Shown here in pieces: positions 1 through 55,870 of a stretch of DNA of 64,000 nt. A program made the position numbers and the translations under genes. The stretch spans positions 29,760,001 through 29,824,000 of the forward strand of contig OX597835.1 in NCBI GenBank assembly GCA_951406725.2. The letters run 5' to 3'. The notes below the pieces were generated by a model. It worked only from the letters and a program-made list of their open reading frames with translations, did no database searches and was not told the origin of the DNA. This DNA is from Octopus vulgaris (lineage: Eukaryota). The first letter of the stretch is position 1; every line of letters starts with the position of its first letter.

Positions 1-2326
1 ACCAGACTTGTTTGGAGGCGTTTTGGCAGCTGTCTACTGCAACTGGCAGCAAAACGGGAGTATTCCTGCTTTTGTAAAGCGAGGAGCAGTGGCACTGATT
101 AAGAAAGACCCAAACAAGGGGGACGTCATAGATAATTTCAGGCCCATCACTCTGCTCAACGCAGATTTGAAAATTTTGGCCAAGGTGTTAGCCGAGAGGT
201 TGGCGCTTGTCATCAAGAAACTAATCGACAAGGCGCAAACATGCGCCGTGCCGGGTAGAAGTATTCATGACAACCTCCATCTGATGCGCTACATCATAGA
301 CAGGGTAGTTAAGAATCCTGGCATGGGTGGGGCGCTGATCAATTTGGATCAATCAAAAGCTTTCGATAGGGTAGACCAACACTACTTGGAGGCTGTCCTT
401 AAAGCGGCTGGTTTCGGTCCAGTTTTCCGCGGTTGGATCGCTGCCTTATACAGCGGCATCCGCTCAGTAGTTCGCGTAAATGGTCATCTATCCAGACCTT
501 TTAACATCATGCATTCGGTTCGTCAGGGATGCCCTCTCTCATCGCTGCTGTATGTATTGACTCTTGAGCCACTACTGCGGAAACTGGCGACGCTGAGGGG
601 CATCCCACGAGAGCTGGGATGCGGGAGGAGCGTGTCTGCATACGCGGATGACGTCACCGTCATAGTGTCGAGCTACCAGCACATCGAGCTGGTCGGCGAG
701 ACACTAAAAGAATACGAAGCGGTAACGGGAGCAAAAATTAACCGGGAAAAGTCAGTGGGCTTGCGGCTCGGCACCTGGATAAGCAGGCCCATGCCGTCCA
801 ACAGCGTCTCCATCGTGGGACGCTGGACGGACGGACCGGTTAAATTGCTCGGGGTCTGGTTCGGTCCGGACCTCCAAATGGAGAAGAACTGGGGCGAGAT
901 AACAACTAGGGTGGCTACTCTCACCCAGAAATGGGCTGAGAGAAAGCTATCCCTAAAAGGTCGAGCGGAGGTGGCGAACGCGTACATCGCATCCGTCATC
1001 GAGTATCGTCTGACCGTCGTGCCTTGTCCCGAGCCTACCATCACCAAACTGGAACGTATACTCTTTCGCTTCTTGTGGGAGGGAAACGTTCCGATGGTTA
1101 GGCGATCCATTTGCTGTCAACACCCGCTAAATGGAGGGCTGGGCATGCCGTGGTTGATGATGCGCAGACATGCGCTGAGACTGCGACATCTCCGGCGCTT
1201 CATAGACAACGGTGAACAGGTGTGGTCGCCTTTTGTGCGGCGCGCTTTCCCGCAGCTCGTCTCCTTGGACGAACTACAGTCATGGATCAAGCAGAGACCG
1301 AGGCTAGGCGAATGGCACCGCGAGTGTCGCGTTGCTCTCAAGCAACTCTGCCGTCCGGGATCGAACTTGTGCGACTCCATCTCAACAAAGGCATTCTATA
1401 GAGGATTAGTGAAGGGGAGGTGCGACGACGAACTCGGGCAGAGTCTGGGCGTCGATGAGGAACACCTGACCCGCCTGTTCAGGACAACTTTCGAGCCGGG
1501 ACCTATGAACAATCACCAAAGATCCCTGGCCTGGCAGTGCTATCGAGAAGCATTACCTGTTCGGGATAAGCTCTACAGACACGGTCCCAGACACACTGGA
1601 CCGACTTGCCCGAGATGCGGTCAGAGCGACGAAACCGTTCTGCACGCACTCGTGCAATGTCCAACCATTTCAGACCTGTGGGCTTATGCCGAACGGCTGC
1701 TGTCACGTGTGGGACGAATCCGCCTATCGGCCGAGTCTATCGTGAGAATTGCTCCGCCCCCTTCCCTCAACCGGGAAGGCAAGGCAGTTTTCATCGTACT
1801 GGTGGCCATGGTGAAAGAATGTGTGTAGTGGACCCGAGCGAAAGGATTAGAGACAAACACTTACCTCTCTGGCCAATCGCTCATCAACTTTTTCAAGTAC
1901 CACTTGAAAAGGAAGGTGAGAATGGAGAGGGAAGTTTTGTCTCGCGAAAGATTCAAAAAAGATGGGTGAATGTTGCAAAGATGGTGCGTGCGAGTGACGA
2001 AACCATTTTGAGCATGATCCAGTAGATCGTAAAAAAGAAAGAGAAAGAGCATTTTGCTCTCATGTGGTTATTTCCTTCCTGAGTGAGGTTCCAGTGGTCT
2101 TTTCTGTAGGCTTTTCTTCCCACGGATGAACCTAATCTTGTTTTATCAATGTTTTTATCATTGTTTCTGTGATACGCGATTTCTTTTCTTTTTTTTCCTC
2201 CTCTCGATCCCTTTTGATCGCAATCTTACATTTCTTTTCTTTTTTTTTTTCCACCCTCGAAAAGAAAAGCTCTGCATTTGTATTTGTCCCCTCTGTATTC
2301 AGCCCTGTGTGGCTAATAAAAGAAAG
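1..2326 (+). mobile_element. L1/Tx1-clade non-LTR retrotransposon, 3' portion (ORF2 RT, C-terminal zinc knuckle, 3'UTR); runs off the window start
   Basis: ORF 8..1828 has RT motifs RPITLLNADLKILAKVLA, NLDQSKAFDRV, VRQGCPLS, YADD (641-652) and a CCHC motif CPRCGQSDETVLHALVQC. A T-rich 3'UTR follows with AATAAA at 2315-2320 and a short A-rich end abutting (ATCT)n. Confidence 0.92.
8..2025 (+). pseudogene. ORF2 reverse transcriptase of the Tx1-like LINE, disrupted near the C-terminus
   Basis: Open for 606 codons. TAG at 1826-1828 looks like a TGG>TAG change because the frame continues WTRAKGLETNTYLSGQSLINFFKYHLKRKVRMERE. An apparent 1-nt loss in the A-run near 1955-1960 shifts to RWVNVAKMVRASDETILSMIQ* ending at 2025. 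Confidence 0.8.
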
Positions 2327-2327
2327 T

Positions 2328-2337
2328 TATCTATCTG

Positions 2338-2416
<79 letters not shown>

Positions 2417-2541
2417 GTCTATCTATCCGTTTGTCTGTCTCTCTTCCTATCTACCTACCCATCTATGTATAGAACCGTTTATCTGTCTTTCTAGATGACT
2501 ACTTCTCTGTCTGTCCATTCAGACATCGATCCATTCTGCTA

Positions 2542-4945: not shown

Positions 4946-5065
4946 TCCTTTCTACTAGAGGCACAAGGCCAGCAGTTTCAGGAGAGAAGTAAATCGATTC
5001 ATGGACCCCAGTACTCAACTGGTACTTATTTTAACAACTCTCGGTAAAATTTTGAACTCCGAACA
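4944..5065 (-). mobile_element. SINE family 1, 3' part with tail type B (ggccttgtgcctctagtagaaaggatt + (ATT)n)
   Basis: gaccccagtactcaactggtacttatt core shared with other copies. Confidence 0.75.
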
Positions 5066-9249: not shown

Positions 9250-9785
9250 CCACTCCTAGCATCTAATAATACCAGAGACCTATCTGAGCTGGAATGCTCA
9301 CATCAACAATAAAACTGATACAGCTCGTAAAATAAGCTCATGAATCCTATGAACCTTTCGGTCCAGAAAACAAAGTGTCATCATTCCTCTTTTCTCTTCC
9401 TTTATACGGCCTCACCTCGAATACTGCTGTCCGCTGTGGTCTCCCCACACAAAGCAAGAGATTTCGAAAATTAAATCACCCCAGAGGACATTGACTAAAA
9501 GAATTAAAGGAATGACTGATCTCGATTATTGGGATCGCCTTAAAACATTGAAAGTCTATTTTCTTCAGCGCTGCTGTGAGTAATGCATCATTTGCACGAT
9601 GTGGAGAATATACCACCAGCATTGGCCAAACGACCTCAACATTAGTTTTAGAATTTATCGAAAGCTAGGACCACAGGCCATACGTCCCCTACCCCATTCA
9701 GGATCACAACACATAGAAACACAGCAACACAATTCCTTTTCCTCAACAGGCCCTACCTTATTTAACATTGTCCCAAAGCAAATCT
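9250..9785 (+). pseudogene. CR1-like LINE ORF2 C-terminal fragment
   Basis: Translates to LSWNAHINNK...IRPHLEYCCPLWSPHTKQEISKIKSPQRTLTKRIKGMTDLDYWDRLKTLKVYFLQR...[12 protein letters not shown] with stops and frameshifts. Confidence 0.85.
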
Positions 9786-11302: not shown

Positions 11303-11973
11303 TTTATTTCTTTACTACTCACAAGGGGCTAAACACCGAGTGGAAAAACAAAGACAGACAAAGGGATTAAGTTGATTACATCGACCCCAGTGCGTAACTG
11401 GTACTTAATTTATCGACCCCGAAAAGATGATAGGCAAAGTGGACCTCGGCGGAATTTGAACTCCGAACGTAACGGCAGACGAAATACGGCTACGCATTTC
11501 GCCCGGCGAGCTAACGATTCTGCCATCTCACCGCCTTATGTGTGTGTGATATTTACGTATTTCTTTATTACCCACAAGGGGCTAAACACAGAGAGGACAA
11601 ACAAGGACAGACAAACGTATTAAGTCGGTTATATCGACCCCAGTGCATAACTGTTACTTAATTTATCGACCCTGAAAGGATGAAAGGCAAAGTCAACCTC
11701 GGCGGAATTTGAACTCAGAACGTAACGGCAGACGAAATACCTATTTCTTTACTACCCACAAGGCGCTAAACACAGAGAGGACAAACAAGGACAGACAAAC
11801 GTATTAAGTCGGTTATATCGACCTCAGTGCGTAACTGGTACTTAATTTATCGACCCCGAAATGATAAAAAGCAAAGTCGACCTCGGCGGAATTTGAACTC
11901 AGAACGTAATGGCATACGAAATACGGCTACGCCTTTCGTCGGCGTGCTAACGATTCTGCCAGCTCACCGCCTT
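11303..11973 (-). mobile_element. Three tandem family 1 SINEs with tail type A
   Basis: Copies ~11303-11537, ~11558-11740 (head truncated), ~11742-11973; head ggcggtgagctggcagaatcgttagc (A box) and gagttcaaattcc (B box). Confidence 0.9.
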
Positions 11974-12474: not shown

Positions 12475-12894
12475 GAAATTTCTCATTTCTTTTATTCCTA
12501 AAAAAAAATCCGTTTTGGTTTTTTTTCTCGTAAATCTTTCTTACAAATATTTTCCTTTGAGCTAAATTTAATATTATTATGCGTTAATTTCAACAGTCAC
12601 ACATGGGGGAAATCGATGTAATTTTCTTGATAGCTACGTATTGTATTGATCTTATCGATTTAAGCAACTAGGATCTGAGGACGTTGATAAGAAGAGTGGT
12701 ATATAAAACTAGTTAAATGCCAGGAACTATTATTTCTTCTTTAATTTTGTTTATTGCATCGATGCTTTTTAAAATATAAACTACACTATACATTTATCTC
12801 CCTTGAAACCAATTATATAGTTATTTCCCTTGAACTTAAGTTCAAAGGGAAATAATTTACTTTTTGTGTGTGTATTTTAGCTGTTTCAATATCT

Positions 12895-13120
12895 GGACAG
12901 TATCGTTAGCACGCCGGGCGAAATGCGTAGCCCTATTTCGTCTGCCGTTACGTTCTGAGTTCAAATTCCGCCGAAGTTGACTTTGCCTTTCATCCTTTCG
13001 GGGTCGATAACTTATGTACCAGTTACGCACTGGGGTCGATATAATCGACTTAATCCGTTTGTCTGTCCTTGTTTGTTCCCTCCCTGTTCAGCCCCTTGTG
13101 GGTAATAAAGAAATAAATAG
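12895..13120 (+). mobile_element. SINE family 1 with tail type A
   Basis: tcgttagcacgccgggcgaaatgcg...gagttcaaattcc...gccccttgtgggtaataaagaaat. Confidence 0.9.
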
Positions 13121-18285: not shown

Positions 18286-18599
18286 AGAGAATCGGTCGTC
18301 GTCTCATTAGGGGGAGAAATCCGAAACGTGGTCCTTTGCTATTCGTAAGACCCGCAGAAGAGATAGCAGGTCAACCCCCGACACCGAGAGCATCGACGGA
18401 TGGATGAATGCACATCCAGGCTCAGCGGTTGCGTAGGAAGTCGGGGACAAGAAACAGGAAGAAAGAGTGAGAGAAAGTTGTAGCGAAAGAGTACAACAGG
18501 GGTCACCCCCCCACCACCGCTGCCGGAGCCTCGTGGAGCCTTAGGTGTTTTCGCTCAATAAACACACACAACGCCCGGTCTGAGAATCGAAACCGCGAT
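18286..18599 (-). mobile_element. SINE family 3, 5'-truncated, tail type Z
   Basis: Body gaaagagtgagagaaagttg...ttaggtgttttcgctcaataaacac matches family 3; 18286-18455 differs from the other tails. Confidence 0.8.
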
Positions 18600-23305: not shown

Positions 23306-23846
23306 TGAACGACGAAACACACTCACAGTATACACCCCACCCCCCACACACATACACTAACTGATACACACACACACACACACACTGACACACACACATA
23401 CACAGAAACACATACACAGTATACACACCCACGCACACACACATACACTAACTGATATACACGCACACACACATACACACATACATACACACTCACACAC
23501 ACATACAGACACAAATACACACATACACAGAAATACATACACTCACATATACACACGCTTATTGATATTCCGTAGAATACCAGATCTTGTAGACTCGGTG
23601 TTTAGATCAACATTCCACTCTATTCCCGTGTTACCTTTATAAGCGTATTATTCAAGCTGCGAAAGTCTAAATTGTTACATAACACGAGTCACATGACATC
23701 AAAGTAACGATTCTATTGTTGACGGCCAACAGTTGCTTATGCATGCAAGTCTTTCCATTTTCTTTCTACGCCTTTGATGCTGTCCAAAGGAAGGGCGACG
23801 ACTTTGGGCGATGTAGTTTGGTACCAGTGTCGGTCAAAGAGTTGCC

Positions 23847-24446
23847 GTGGAGGCACATGGCCTAGTGGTTAGAGCAGCGGACTTGCGGTCAACAGTGCGC
23901 GGGTTCGAATCTCAGACCGGGCGATGTGTGTGTGTTTATGAGCGAAAACACCTAAGCTCCACACGGCTCCGGCAGAAGGTAATGGCGAAACTTCTGCTGA
24001 CTCTTTCGCCACAACTTTCTCTCACTCTTTCCTCTTGCATCTTGCAGCTCACCTGCGACGGACCGACGTCCCAAGAAACCGGGAAACCGGCACTTATGAG
24101 CCAGGCATGGCTCGAGAAGGAACAAAAAACAGACAGAGGCAGCAGTAGTGAGGCACATGGCCTAGTGGTTAGAGAGATCGCGGTTTCGAATCTCAGATCG
24201 GGTGATGTGTGTGTGTGTTTATGAGCGAAAACACCTAAGCTCCATGCGGCTCCGGCAGAAGGTAATGGCGAAACTTCTGCTGACTCTTTCGCCACAGCTT
24301 TCGCTCACTCTTTCCTCCTGCATCTTGTAGCTCACCTGCGACGGACCGGCGTCCCGTCCAGGTGGGGAACCTATACGCCAAGGAAACCAGGAAACCGGTC
24401 CTTATGAGCCAGGCATGGCTTGAGAAGGAACAAACAACAAACAAAC
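23847..24446 (+). mobile_element. Head-to-tail dimer of family 3 SINEs (tail X) inside one TSD
   Basis: Monomers ~23847-24130 and ~24149-24446; caaagagttgc at 23835-23845 and 24446-24456. Confidence 0.9.
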
Positions 24447-24869
24447 AAAGAGTTGCTGTTGGAATTCAGCAAATTATAATCAGATACAGCAAGAGATCCT
24501 TTCCGAACAGCAACGAGCTATACGTCCGCCGAGAGCTGTCAACTGATGATGTCCAAGGGCGGGACAATGACTTTGGCCGAAATGGTTGGGTACCAGTGTC
24601 GTTCCAAGAGTTGCCGTTAAAATTCAGCAAATTAGAATCAGATATAGTTAGAGATGTTGTTCTATGCTTTGGTACATCCCCCCCAAATCCTCTATCCTAA
24701 TGATTCTCCACTGGATTCCATATGATCCTTTGGGATCCACATAAGATATTATTTTGCTAAAATGTATGTGCGATAAGTTGGTTACACTTCGACATTACAC
24801 AAAATATTTCAAAATTTTTAATACAATCCCAAATAAACTTTAATTCTACAAATACAGTGGGATTCCTTT

Positions 24870-32353: not shown

Positions 32354-33120
32354 TGAGGTCAGTGTAGAGGATTTGGAAAGAGATGAATGAGTCTAAAGGT
32401 GATTACAAAGGTACGACAGCTCGGAAAACTCACTCTGATCGTTCTGATGAGAAAAGAAATCCTAAATTTGTTGTTGAGATCCAGGCGATCATTGACAACG
32501 ATCCCTCCAAATCAATAAGGTCCATTGCTAGGGAAATGGAAGTGTCTGAGTTTCTTATCAGGTAGCTACTGCATGAAGACATTCGGTATTTCTCCTACAA
32601 GATGAGAAAAGGCCAATTTTTATCCCAAGTCATCAAGGACAAGAGGAAAAACCGTACTACGAATCTTTTGAACAAACTCAAGCATCTCATCCAACCGAAC
32701 ATGCTTTGGTTTTTCTCAGACGGGAAAAATTTCTGCCAGGATCAGATGGTGAACACACAGAAAGACTGTTGGCTTGCTGTGTCTCCAAAACATGTACCAA
32801 GAGTGATAACAATCACACACCCAGACAACATCATGGTGTTTGGAGTGATCACTAATGAGGGCGAAGTTGTGCCTCCATTTAACTTCCCAAACGGCCTCAG
32901 ACTCAACACAGAGGCCTACATCAAGTGGTGGAGGAGGTAGTGCTGCCCTGAGTCAAGGGGGTGGGTGCAGGAAGACCCTATGTCTGGCAACAGGACTCTG
33001 CACCATGCTACGCAAGCAGGAGAACCCAGTCATGGCTGTCAGACAATTTTTGAGACCACAACATAACAACTGACCCCCTAATTCACCAGACTGTACCCCC
33101 TTGATTATTATGTGTGGAGT
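32354..33120 (+). mobile_element. Degenerate maT/DD37D-like Tc1-mariner transposase
   Basis: DPSKSIRSIAREMEVSEFLIR HTH, WFFSDGKNF, IMVFGVITNEG, PYVWQQDSAPC, PNSPDCTPLDYYVWS with stops and frameshifts. Confidence 0.85.
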
Positions 33121-34170: not shown

Positions 34171-34179
34171 CATATATAT

Positions 34180-34403
34180 ATTTCTTTATTTCCCACAGGG
34201 GGTCAAACATAGAAGGGACACACAAGGACAGACAAATGGATTAAGTCGATTACATCGACTCCAGTGCGTAACTGGTACTTATTTAATCGACCCCGAAATG
34301 ATAAAAGACAAAGTCGACCTCAACGGAATTTGAACTCAGAACGTAACGGCAGACGAAACACTACCAAGCACTTCGCCCGGCGTGCTAACGATTCTGCCAG
34401 TTC
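34180..34403 (-). mobile_element. SINE family 1 with tail A
   Basis: tttctttatttcccacaggg...ttaagtcgattacatcgac...gattctgccag. Confidence 0.9.
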
Positions 34404-34431
34404 GTCTATCCCTCCCTCCCTCGTTCCATCC

Positions 34432-36000: not shown

Positions 36001-36387
36001 AATATATGTAAATACTATACACAAAGCCCCTCCTCCCAAACCAGGCTGTACGCTTCCCTTAGGCAAACATCTTACCACCCAGTGGTAAACCTCTTACCAC
36101 ACAGCCACCCTTGTCCTGCGCCTCATATAATTAAAATCTCGAAGCAACACAATAATTCTCGATTAATTCAAAACTATGCGAATAAATATTTGTTGAGATT
36201 AATCTGAGTGTTAAATGGTTAAAGAAGGACCCTTGAAGGACCCTTGAAGTCGACATAACATTACATCAGTGATGAGCAAACTGCGGCGACGCGGAACTTT
36301 CTGAATGGTACATTTAACAAAATAATTCCCTTGATTTTCTTTTTGGTCAATAGTGCAGCCTGCTTGACGATGGCCCAAGTATCCAGC

Positions 36388-36699
36388 GTGGAGGCACATG
36401 GCCTATTGGTTAGAGCAGCGGATTCGCGGTCGAGGGATCGCGGGTTCGAATCTCAGACCGCGGGATATGTGTGTTTATGAGCGAAACACCTAAGATCCAC
36501 GCAGCAACGGCAGCAGATAATGGCGAAACTTCTGCTGACTCTTTCGCCACAACTTTCTCTCACTCTTTGCTCCTGCATCTTGCAGCTCATCTGTGACGGA
36601 CCGGCGTACCGTTCAGGTGGGGAACCTATACGCCAAGAAACCGGGAAACCGGCCCTTATGAGCCAGGCATAGCTCGAGAAGGAACAACCAACCAACAAA
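36388..36699 (+). mobile_element. SINE family 3, full length, tail X, with TSD
   Basis: gtggaggcacatggcctattggttagagcagcgg...ggttcgaatc; TSD ccaagtatc(c/t)agc at 36375-36387 and 36700-36712. Confidence 0.92.
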
Positions 36700-37004
36700 C
36701 CAAGTATCTAGCGGCTCACCTTTTAAGAGAAATTTCCCATGTCTGCTTTATATGGCAATTTGACCTGCAAGAAACAGGAACAAATTCTGGAAATTAGAGC
36801 CTACCTTCTTGGTAAATGAACGAAACAATTAATCTAGAGACATTAGAACCAAAAAGACAAACGAAAAGAAGAGAAGGATGTCGTAAGTGGAATGCTTTTC
36901 TGGAGTCAACATTAAGTTTCATCAGAGATAAAGTTGGGCTCTATAGCGTGTCCGTAAAGTCTTGGTGGCATTTCAAAACTATTTCAAAACAGTTATACAT
37001 TATT

Positions 37005-38562: not shown

Positions 38563-39090
38563 CATCTATTTGATAACTTTATTTTTAAATTTACTAATAA
38601 ATGTAGAAATATGATGATTCAAACCACTAAATTTGTTTTTACTAACATGTTTTCTTTTCTTTTAAGATTATGACATATCCGAACTACGCTATCAACAAGC
38701 TTAGAGAACGCGAATATCACTCGACTCTGTTTGCTAAGCTTGCAATGGCTTCACAACTCTTATCACAGCAGCGATATGTTACAAGAGATATCAGAAAGAT
38801 ACACAACTTGTATTTTGACTGTCAACTAACTGACGGAGATAAAACACAGTCACCTCCCGAAATTTGTATTACAGCATGTTTAAGTGGTTTGTATGATTGG
38901 ATGAAGACAAAGGAGCCGTGAATGTCTTTTGCAGGGCCAGGGATTTTGACGGGAGAGGAAAGAAACGTAACTGTTATTTTTAATGTCGTTAGTATTTAAG
39001 CGGCTCCTTCACATCCCCGCCACGACGACGACGATGACGACGACCACGACGACGACCACGACGACGACCACGACCACCACCACCACCACT

Positions 39091-39327
39091 ACCTATTTCT
39101 TTATTGCCCACAAAGGGGCTAAACATAGAAGGGACAAACAAGGACAGACAATGGGATTAAGTCGATTATATCGACCCCAGTGCGTAACTGGTACTTATTT
39201 AATCGACCCCGAAAGGATGAAAGGCAAAGTCGACCTCGGCGGAATTTGAACTCAGAACGTAGCGGCAGACGAAATACCACTAAGCATTTCGCCCGGCTTG
39301 TTAATGTTTCTGCCAACTCGCCGCCTT
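39091..39327 (-). mobile_element. SINE family 1 with tail A
   Basis: ctatttctttattgcccacaaaggggctaaac...tgccaactcgccgcct. Confidence 0.9.
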
Positions 39328-43455: not shown

Positions 43456-43741
43456 TCACGTGATCACGTGACCGACCAGACCATCAGATGTTGTTACATA
43501 TCGCTAGTCACAATGCGTTCGCATTGTTTTAGCCTTCGAATGACGCCACCCCGCTGGCTAAGCGAGCAGGCCAACAGAAGAAAGAGTGGGAGAAAGAGTG
43601 GTGAAAGAGTACAGTAGGGATCACCACCCCCTGCCGGAGCCTCGTGGAGCTTTTAGGTGTTTTCGCTCAATAAACACTCACAACGCCCGGTCTGAGAATC
43701 GAAACCGCGATCCTGCGACCGCTAGGCCATTGCGCCTCCAC
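43456..43741 (-). mobile_element. SINE family 3, tail Y
   Basis: Homologous to 6093-6394, including the tcacgtgatcacgtgaccgacc end. Confidence 0.9.
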
Positions 43742-50738: not shown

Positions 50739-50951
50739 CTTTTCTACTCTAGGCACAAGGCCCGAAATTTTGTGAGGGGAGCCAGTCGATTAGATAAACC
50801 CTAGTACGCAACTGGTGCTTAATTTATGACCCCGAAAGGATGAAAAGCAAAGTCGACCTCAGCAGAATTTGAACTCAGAACGTAAAGACAAACTAAATAC
50901 CGCTAAGCATTTCGCCCGGCGTGCTAATGTTTCTACCAGCGCGCTGCCTTA
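50445..50951 (-). mobile_element. Two family 1 SINEs (tail B) separated by (AAT)n
   Basis: ~50445-50663 and ~50737-50951, each with gatgaaa(g/a)gcaaag..gacct..gc.gaatttga.ctcaga. Confidence 0.85.
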
Positions 50952-55400: not shown

Positions 55401-55564
55401 ACGTATTTACTTTCTTACTTACTTTGTGGGCACAAGACCTGTGACTCTAGTGCTCAACTGGTACTTAATTCATCGACCTTGGAGGAATGAAAGGCAAAGT
55501 CGACCACTGTAGAATATGAGCTCAGTAAGAGGAAACCTGGAGAAATAGCATAACGTTAATATAT

Positions 55565-55870
55565 TGTTGTTTGTTCCTCTCGAGCCATGCCTAGCTCATA
55601 AGGGCCGGTTTCCCGGTTTCTGTGGCGTATAGGTTCCTCACCTGGACGGGACGCCGGTCCGTCGAAGGTGAGCTGCAAGAAGTAGGAGGAAAGAGTAAGA
55701 GAAAGTTGTGGCGATAGAGTCAGCAGAAGTTCGGCCATTACCTTCTGCCGGATCCGTGTGGAGCTTAGGTGTTTCGCTCATAAACACATACACCACCCGG
55801 TCTGAGATTCGAACCCGCAATCCCTCGACCTCGAATCCTCTGCTCTAACCACTAGGCCATGCGCCTCCAC
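55565..55870 (-). mobile_element. SINE family 3, full length, tail X
   Basis: Reverse complement of the 36388-36699 type; TSD aacgttaa(t/g)atat on both sides. Confidence 0.92.

What the first reader, a model, noticed from the sequence alone, without database searches (positions are those of the whole stretch)
2277..2326. SINE family 1 tail A matches the 3' terminus of the Tx1-like LINE
Seen: the LINE ends tttgtcccctctgtattcagccctgtgtggctaataaaagaaa. SINE copies end tttgtcctctctgtgtttagccccttgtgggtaataaagaa (reverse complement of 11561-11601) and tttgttccctccctgttcagccccttgtgggtaataaagaaa (13072-13113), with similar ends at 11305, 11745, 34181 and 39096. Known: SINEs borrow the 3' ends of partner LINEs, mostly described for CR1, L2 and RTE, whereas mammalian L1 needs only poly(A). 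Inference: this L1/Tx1-clade RT recognises a specific 3' RNA element and mobilises an abundant tRNA-SINE, with both partners present in this window.
Basis: partly seen in the sequence, partly recalled or inferred. Interest (0 to 1): 0.7.

Follow-up and report, generated by a model that had tools for sequence, protein, structure and literature searches.

The report
SINE shares a Tx1 LINE's tail
An abundant short jumping element in this likely octopus genome ends in the same 43-base tail, without poly(A), as a family of L1-related (likely Tx1) retrotransposons, and it likely uses that tail, predicted to fold into a hairpin, to borrow the copying enzyme of a sister family rather than that of the broken copy seen here.

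Summary
Observation confirmed. The LINE's last 43 nt (2283-2325) match all six tail-A SINE ends (four beat all 2000 shuffles). The tail is not a one-off fusion: diverged contigs from three organisms join it to the LINE-specific bases upstream. The RT is L1-group and scores higher against Xenopus Tx1 (214 bits) than human L1 (124); its nearest named relative is from Argonauta. There is no poly(A); the family is followed by (TATC)n.

The pairing claim needs narrowing. This copy is broken, and 0 of 6 tail-A SINEs are followed by (TATC)n, so the likely mobiliser is a sister Tx1 subfamily with another target. The hairpin is only predicted: no covariation among LINE and tail A. Older SINE copies keep the loop with an inverted stem, probably one event.

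L1-clade tail pairs in the papers read are from plants and algae. Repbase and Dfam were not searchable. This scan already noted the same tail sharing elsewhere in this genome. New variant of a known kind; interest 0.5.

The parts
2..1828 (+). LINE ORF2, 5' end cut off by the window edge: RT domain (nt 110-856) and zf-RVT (nt 1520-1681); ends at a premature stop
   Evidence: most contigs laid read another base at 1827, so the stop is copy-specific
1829..2025 (+). Rest of ORF2, with a frameshift near 1954
   Evidence: tblastn of relatives runs through to about 2007 across two frames; 1-base insertion in other copies; frame stop at 2025
2026..2282 (+). LINE 3' UTR with T-rich runs; not shared with the SINE in this copy
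2283..2325 (+). Terminal 43 nt shared with SINE tail A; predicted hairpin 2292-2323; no poly(A)
2328..2427 (+). (TATC)n microsatellite after the LINE end; likely the target site of this subfamily
   Evidence: depth and loose ends in three DNA-type runs continue into the repeat
11305..11536 (-). SINE with tail A, full length; A box at about nt 13 and B box at about nt 77 of the head
11558..11741 (-). SINE with tail A, lacking the first ~50 nt; begins at the GGTATTT site of the head, directly behind the tail of the next copy
11742..11973 (-). SINE with tail A, full length; with 11558-11741 forms a dimer flanked by a ~19-nt direct repeat
12893..13115 (+). SINE with tail A, 5' end decayed
34179..34407 (-). 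SINE with tail A
39094..39326 (-). SINE with tail A; 14-15-nt target-site duplication beginning GGTA
50741..50950 (-). Example of the older tail-B SINE: same head and body, other tail, same loop with inverted stem. Other tail-B ends near 4949, 5952, 8113, 8350, 8435, 41773, 50449

Best explanation
The SINE's younger subfamily ends in the same 43-base, poly(A)-free tail as a family of L1-group (likely Tx1) LINEs; it likely gained that tail by a tail swap and is likely copied by the reverse transcriptase of a sister Tx1 subfamily that would recognise the tail's predicted hairpin. Shown: the shared sequence, its presence on many LINE copies, the L1-group RT, two tails on one SINE body, and tail-A copies being more alike than tail-B copies. 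Inferred: the RT binds the hairpin and starts target-primed reverse transcription just behind it; the SINE RNA is made by Pol III from its A and B boxes; the tail moved from LINE to SINE by template switching; the mobiliser is a sister subfamily whose target begins GGTA, not this (TATC)n-associated, broken copy.
For: Match and shuffles. One search lists 32 of 3367 laid pieces, mostly the longest: 28 of 32 run from 2260 or earlier to 2320 or later. Loose ends before 2282-2285 in the three DNA-type runs are LINE-like variants, not SINE bodies, and read CCTTGT where the SINE does too. Common variants at 2290, 2297 and 2300, and a shorter A-run before GAAA, are the SINE's letters. RT placement. 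Body identity: 90% among 6 tail-A copies, 78% among 8 tail-B copies. The same fold is predicted for the LINE and 3 of 4 SINE tails folded. Loop kept with both-side changes in 3 of 4 stem pairs between tails A and B. Direct repeats of 14-19 nt at 2 of 5 tail-A units.
Against: No covariation among the LINE and six tail-A ends: 0 of 11 pairs change on both sides and the score does not beat shuffles. Folding z-scores are only -0.5 to -2.1. The A/B covariation compares two subfamilies, so probably one event, and I chose the structure after seeing the sequences. No other copy is shown bridging the T-run (2231-2250) between the upstream UTR and the tail: one search skipped 2222-2460. No mammalian-type L1 is in the trees. 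The sister subfamily was not seen as a whole element; its GGTA target rests on three junctions at two loci in the window, a weak 9-contig consensus and unchecked earlier notes. Other LINE clades could not be screened for this tail (no genome).
Confidence: 0.6

Rival explanations
1. One reading: this same (TATC)n-associated subfamily is the SINE's mobiliser.
For: 79-84% tail identity. The subfamily is abundant in three organisms. Passengers could be placed less specifically than the LINE itself (inference).
Against: 0 of 6 tail-A SINEs are followed by (TATC)n, whereas depth after the LINE tail continues into the repeat at about the level of the LINE-specific part (X1: ~125,000 vs ~130,000; biased upward because the query held the repeat's start). 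In crocodilians SINEU shares its Tx1 partner's target (PMC4494074).
Confidence: 0.13
2. The tail is shared by descent (one template switch) but is not a recognition signal; the RT is relaxed, and the tail persists for another reason such as its AATAAA 3'-end signal.
For: AATAAA lies in the LINE tail and in 4 of 6 tail-A copies. Weak folding statistics and no covariation within tail A.
Against: No poly(A) follows any of the 7 ends. Tail B lacks AATAAA yet keeps the loop, the stem pairing and the spacing to GAAA. A Pol III SINE has no evident use for a Pol II poly(A) signal (general knowledge).
Confidence: 0.14
3. Transfer ran the other way or from a third party: the Tx1 lineage picked up a SINE end, or both got it from another LINE clade that is the real mobiliser.
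For: The loop motif is older than tail A, since tail B has it. Earlier scan notes say some Tx1 families insert inside this SINE, which would allow capture (unchecked). The source of tail B is not identified.
Against: Upstream of the hairpin, tail A resembles LINE variants, not tail B. Tail A sits on the younger SINE copies, fitting a recent gain by the SINE.
Confidence: 0.1
4. A truncated SINE fragment happens to sit at the end of this one LINE copy.
For: The SINE is abundant, and no other copy is shown bridging the T-run.
Against: Many diverged contigs in three organisms join the LINE-specific bases to the tail. The LINE-type loop letters show no SINE-type variant among the listed differences.
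Confidence: 0.03

Closest known systems
Maize/sorghum ZmSINE2 and ZmSINE3 with LINE1-1_ZM; Chlamydomonas SINEX-3_CR with L1-1_CR (Ohshima 2012, PMC3472496, part 1 of 3 read; Ohshima 2013, PMC3747384, passages and Table 1)
   Same: An L1-clade LINE and a tRNA-SINE share the last ~45-80 nt; the maize tail is a predicted hairpin with a conserved loop and variable stem.
   Different: Those are plants and algae, and almost all plant L1s end in poly(A). Here an animal, Tx1-like LINE has no poly(A) and a likely microsatellite target. Table 1 of the 2013 review lists no animal SINE with an L1 or Tx1 tail.
Crocodilian SINEU with Tx1-Mar (Kojima 2015, PMC4494074; passages and section 16)
   Same: A Tx1-clade LINE is the inferred mobiliser of a SINE.
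   Different: SINEU has snRNA heads and poly(A); the link was argued from shared targets, ages and 5' heads. In the parts read, no shared 3' tail is given.
Microsatellite-targeting Tx1 families Kibi (TC)n, Koshi (TTC)n and crocodilian (TTCC)n/(TTTC)n families (as described in PMC4494074; Kojima and Fujiwara 2004 seen only as cited)
   Same: Tx1-like LINE followed by a fixed simple repeat.
   Different: The repeat is (TATC)n. The 5' junction is outside the window, so target site versus terminal repeat is not settled here.
Tail swapping in SINE superfamilies with L2/CR1 partners (Nishihara 2016, PMC4824008, passages)
   Same: One head and body carrying different LINE-derived tails, with a stem-loop.
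   Different: The partners named there for bivalve SINEs are L2 and CR1; 'Tx1' does not occur in its text.

Membership tests
L1 group non-LTR retrotransposon | RT closer to L1/Tx1 than to R2 or CR1-like RTs | tested here: met
   phmmer bits: Xenopus Tx1 ORF2 214, human L1 ORF2p 124, R2 50-62; split from four unnamed RTs that I read as CR1-like by SH-aLRT 99
L1 group non-LTR retrotransposon | C-terminal zinc-binding motif (zf-RVT) | tested here: met
   PF13966, E 6e-8
L1 group non-LTR retrotransposon | N-terminal APE endonuclease and ORF1 | tested here: inconclusive
   Outside the window; 24 of the 28 best full-length relatives (38-47% identity) carry PF03372
Tx1 clade | Groups with Tx1 to the exclusion of vertebrate L1 in an RT tree | tested here: inconclusive
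   Sits among Tx1-named proteins, in its own 99-100% clade with cephalopod proteins, but no named L1 was available for the trees
Tx1 clade | Target-sequence preference | tested here: inconclusive
   3' ends consistently run into (TATC)n; 5' junctions not seen
tRNA-derived SINE | Internal Pol III A and B boxes | tested here: met
   Box consensus from recall; A-box match at nt 13-14 in 4 of 6 heads and B-box match at nt 77-78 in 5 of 6
tRNA-derived SINE | Detectable homology to a tRNA | tested here: inconclusive
   ARAGORN 0 genes; no tRNA among 9 weak Rfam hits; such scans often miss SINE heads (general knowledge); GGCGG/CCGCC ends pair like an acceptor stem in 4 of 6 folds
tRNA-derived SINE | Short, dispersed, non-coding, with target-site duplications | tested here: met
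   ~230 nt, 17 copies or fragments aligned; direct repeats of 14 nt or more at 3 of the 11 units tested
Deu/Nin or CORE SINE superfamily | Central conserved domain | not tested
Stringent SINE/LINE pair | Shared 3'-terminal sequence, general to the LINE family | tested here: met
Stringent SINE/LINE pair | 3' stem-loop supported by compensatory changes | tested here: inconclusive
   None among LINE and tail A; 3 of 4 pairs between tails A and B, probably one event
Stringent SINE/LINE pair | Same insertion signature in SINE and partner | tested here: not met
   For this subfamily: 0 of 6 tail-A SINEs followed by (TATC)n. A sister family was not testable
Stringent SINE/LINE pair | Tail required for retrotransposition by the LINE's RT | not testable with these tools
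   needs a cell or in vitro assay

The most novel reading that the evidence does not exclude
A whole radiation of octopod Tx1 LINEs selects its RNA by a poly(A)-independent hairpin (fixed loop, exchangeable stem, GAAA nine bases on), and one tRNA-SINE has swapped tails to track successive Tx1 lineages with different targets. That would be an animal case of stringent recognition within the L1 group, with natural stem variants ready for testing.
Probability: 0.35. Interest if true: 0.7.

Novelty: new variant of a known kind. Interest (0 to 1): 0.5.

Why it matters
[quoted passage not shown] An animal Tx1/SINE pair with a structured, poly(A)-free tail would extend that to animals. It gives a direct test, with an RT homologous to the solved human L1 ORF2p, of how an L1-type enzyme picks its RNA without poly(A). 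It would also name a likely driver for part of the SINE expansion in octopuses (SINEs are 11.6% of the O. vulgaris genome, PMC13282606).

Tried and rejected
No own genome is held, so there are no genome-wide consensus ends, age profiles or target counts. One search skipped 2222-2460 as repeats, so its zero depth there is no finding. The metagenome scan gave 31 loci, all distant (22-54% identity); 11 had their 3' regions printed and all 31 were blasted, with no real tail or SINE match (best E for the tail and SINE queries 0.24). Tail pattern and protein scans of viral and prokaryote collections were empty. ARAGORN and Rfam found no tRNA. The supplement search for the SINE's central domain was empty; the supplement of PMC13282606 was listed but not read and may bear on family names. 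My first label 'CORE' for this SINE came from recall and is withdrawn. The 12 versus 0.92 expected count is not a fair test, because the motif was drawn from these SINE ends; it shows only that spacing is the same in tails A and B. Two alignment rows were left out of A3 (the LINE and copy 39088, both with a 6-nt loop). Pfam on six other ORFs gave nothing above cut-off.

Full report
Setting. The window begins inside a LINE ORF2: 608 codons at 2-1828 with RVT_1 (E 2e-30) and zf-RVT (E 6e-8). The nearest named proteins come from Argonauta hians (66%) and Acanthosepion pharaonis (51% over half the query), so the host is likely an octopod. No assembly is held. Relatives align past the stop at 1826-1828 to about 2007 across a frameshift near 1954. 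This copy is therefore broken, ORF2 likely ended at 2025, and the 3' UTR is about 300 nt. It ends without poly(A), directly at a (TATC)n run.

The observation. The last 43 nt (2283-2325) hit four SINE ends at 79-84% identity, and nothing else in the window with E below 0.4. Six SINE copies carry this tail A. Against 2000 shuffles each, four are never reached, one is reached twice and one 12 times. For the two SINE copies aligned to the whole LINE, the best match is its very end.

Is the tail the family's end? could not tell, because 2222-2460 was skipped. laid 2251-2338 on four runs (1075, 1518, 746 and 28 contigs). Of 32 listed pieces (of 3367, mostly the longest), 28 run from the LINE-specific bases into the tail. 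Five meet the tool's 31-letter bridging rule; one is identical to the window and four differ by 3-11 letters, in organisms A, B and C. Summed depth over the LINE-specific bases (about 130,000 in X1) is of the same order as over the upstream UTR (21,000-254,000 over 2028-2225) and far above the listed single contigs (16-59); this means many copies but is not a copy number. Twenty X1 contigs have T-rich loose ends before 2257, as the window does. What remains unshown is another copy that spans the T-run at 2231-2250. The fusion explanation is unlikely.

Clade. By phmmer the window protein scores 214 bits against Xenopus Tx1 ORF2, 124 against human L1 ORF2p and 50-62 against R2. In trees it forms a 99-100% clade with cephalopod and unnamed proteins, lies among Tx1-named proteins and apart from four unnamed RTs that I read as CR1-like. 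No named L1 was in the trees. L1 group is shown; Tx1 is likely.

The SINE. It is about 230 nt, with A-box and B-box matches at nt 13 and 77 (consensus from recall); ARAGORN and Rfam find no tRNA. One head and body carry two tails that part right after the central domain. Bodies are 90% alike among 6 tail-A copies and 78% among 8 tail-B copies, so tail A is likely the younger, gained by a swap. Tail B does not match the LINE by alignment score (0 of 8).

Structure. The LINE end and 3 of 4 tail-A ends folded give the same bulged hairpin, with modest z-scores (-0.5 to -2.1). Across the LINE and six tail-A ends, 91% of cells pair but no pair changes on both sides. The four common variants fall in unpaired places (2290, 2291, 2300) or turn A-U into G-U (2297); this fits but proves little. 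Tails A and B share a CUUGU-type loop and the same nine-base spacing to GAAA, while the stem is inverted: 3 of 4 pairs change on both sides, 86.5% of cells pair versus at most 52% when slid. This is the best sign that the shape matters, but it compares two subfamilies and I chose the structure after seeing them.

Which LINE is the partner? After the LINE tail, depth runs on into (TATC)n and the loose-end consensus of 122, 181 and 104 contigs reads into the same repeat (agreement 0.52-0.58; the query held the repeat's start, which favours this). None of 6 tail-A SINEs is followed by that repeat. Three junctions at two loci begin with GGTA or its duplicate: 11742 into the SINE's own head site, the dimer's 19-nt duplication, and the 14-15-nt duplication at 39088. 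Nine contigs of run X12 give a weak consensus with the same head site behind the tail. LINE variants carry SINE-like letters at 2290, 2297 and 2300, a shorter A-run, and CCTTGT upstream. So a sister subfamily with another target is the likelier mobiliser. I took the explicit 'sister family' reading from earlier scan notes and tested it only partly.

Mechanism. Likely: Pol III makes the SINE RNA; a Tx1 ORF2 protein binds the terminal hairpin; its endonuclease nicks its preferred site; reverse transcription starts just behind the hairpin without poly(A), leaving 14-19-nt duplications. The sequence sharing is shown; binding, priming and the identity of the partner are inferred.

What is known. 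Ohshima 2012 (PMC3472496, part 1 of 3) and 2013 (PMC3747384, passages and the first part of its tables) list three SINEs with L1 tails, in maize/sorghum and Chlamydomonas. Kojima 2015 (PMC4494074, passages and section 16) links poly(A)-tailed SINEU to Tx1-Mar by targets and 5' heads, and describes microsatellite-targeting Tx1 families. Octopus and mollusc repeat papers (PMC13282606 part 1 of 3 and passages; passages of PMC8967140, PMC10294476, PMC4758252, PMC5804259, PMC4824008, PMC5786205) give no SINE-Tx1 tail link in what I read. Nine searches found none. The library lacks most subscription papers; Ohshima and Okada 1994 was seen only as cited; Repbase, Dfam and SINEBase could not be searched.

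Earlier scan notes. The same tail sharing, the fixed loop with co-varying stems, a GATA-repeat-targeting family and SINE-head targeting were noted on other pieces of this genome. They are unchecked leads and not counted as support.

Verdict. New variant of a known kind. Interest 0.5.

Noticed in passing
window 11305-11973 (-): Three tail-A SINEs stacked head to tail: a full copy joined at its tail to the GGTATTT site of a second copy, the pair flanked by a ~19-nt direct repeat and lying directly before a third copy. Bodies are 89-91% alike, so not a recent tandem duplication; possibly a dimer copied as one RNA.
   Followed up: partly
window 4949-4968, 50741-50760 (-): Two tail-B SINEs are followed by (ATT)n; the first has a 17-nt direct repeat. 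Could reflect an older partner LINE with an ATT target.
   Followed up: partly
window 11446-11537 (-) and other SINE heads: The SINE head holds a long, near-perfect hairpin between the A and B boxes; the GGTATTT site lies in its 3' arm.
   Followed up: no
window 13886-62524: Two further abundant repeat clusters of 14 and 13 intervals, often adjacent; their ends do not match the LINE tail beyond chance.
   Followed up: no
window 18447-18599, 23775-24450, 36387-36704, 43488-43738, 55564-55870: Repeats linked by self-BLAST to the SINE cluster but not among the SINE body hits; likely another short family.
   Followed up: no
window 9584-9760 (+) and 32566-32940 (+): Short frames that by eye resemble a LINE C-terminus followed by (TATC)n and a Tc1/mariner transposase piece; Pfam found nothing.
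   Followed up: partly
protein P0125: A protein 64% identical to this LINE's ORF2 is deposited under a Herbaspirillum metagenome-assembled genome; likely host DNA contamination.
   Followed up: no
L006 5040-5194: A distant Tx1-like relative in a metagenome contig ends in a T-rich UTR, AATAAA and a poly(A) run, unlike the window's element.
   Followed up: no
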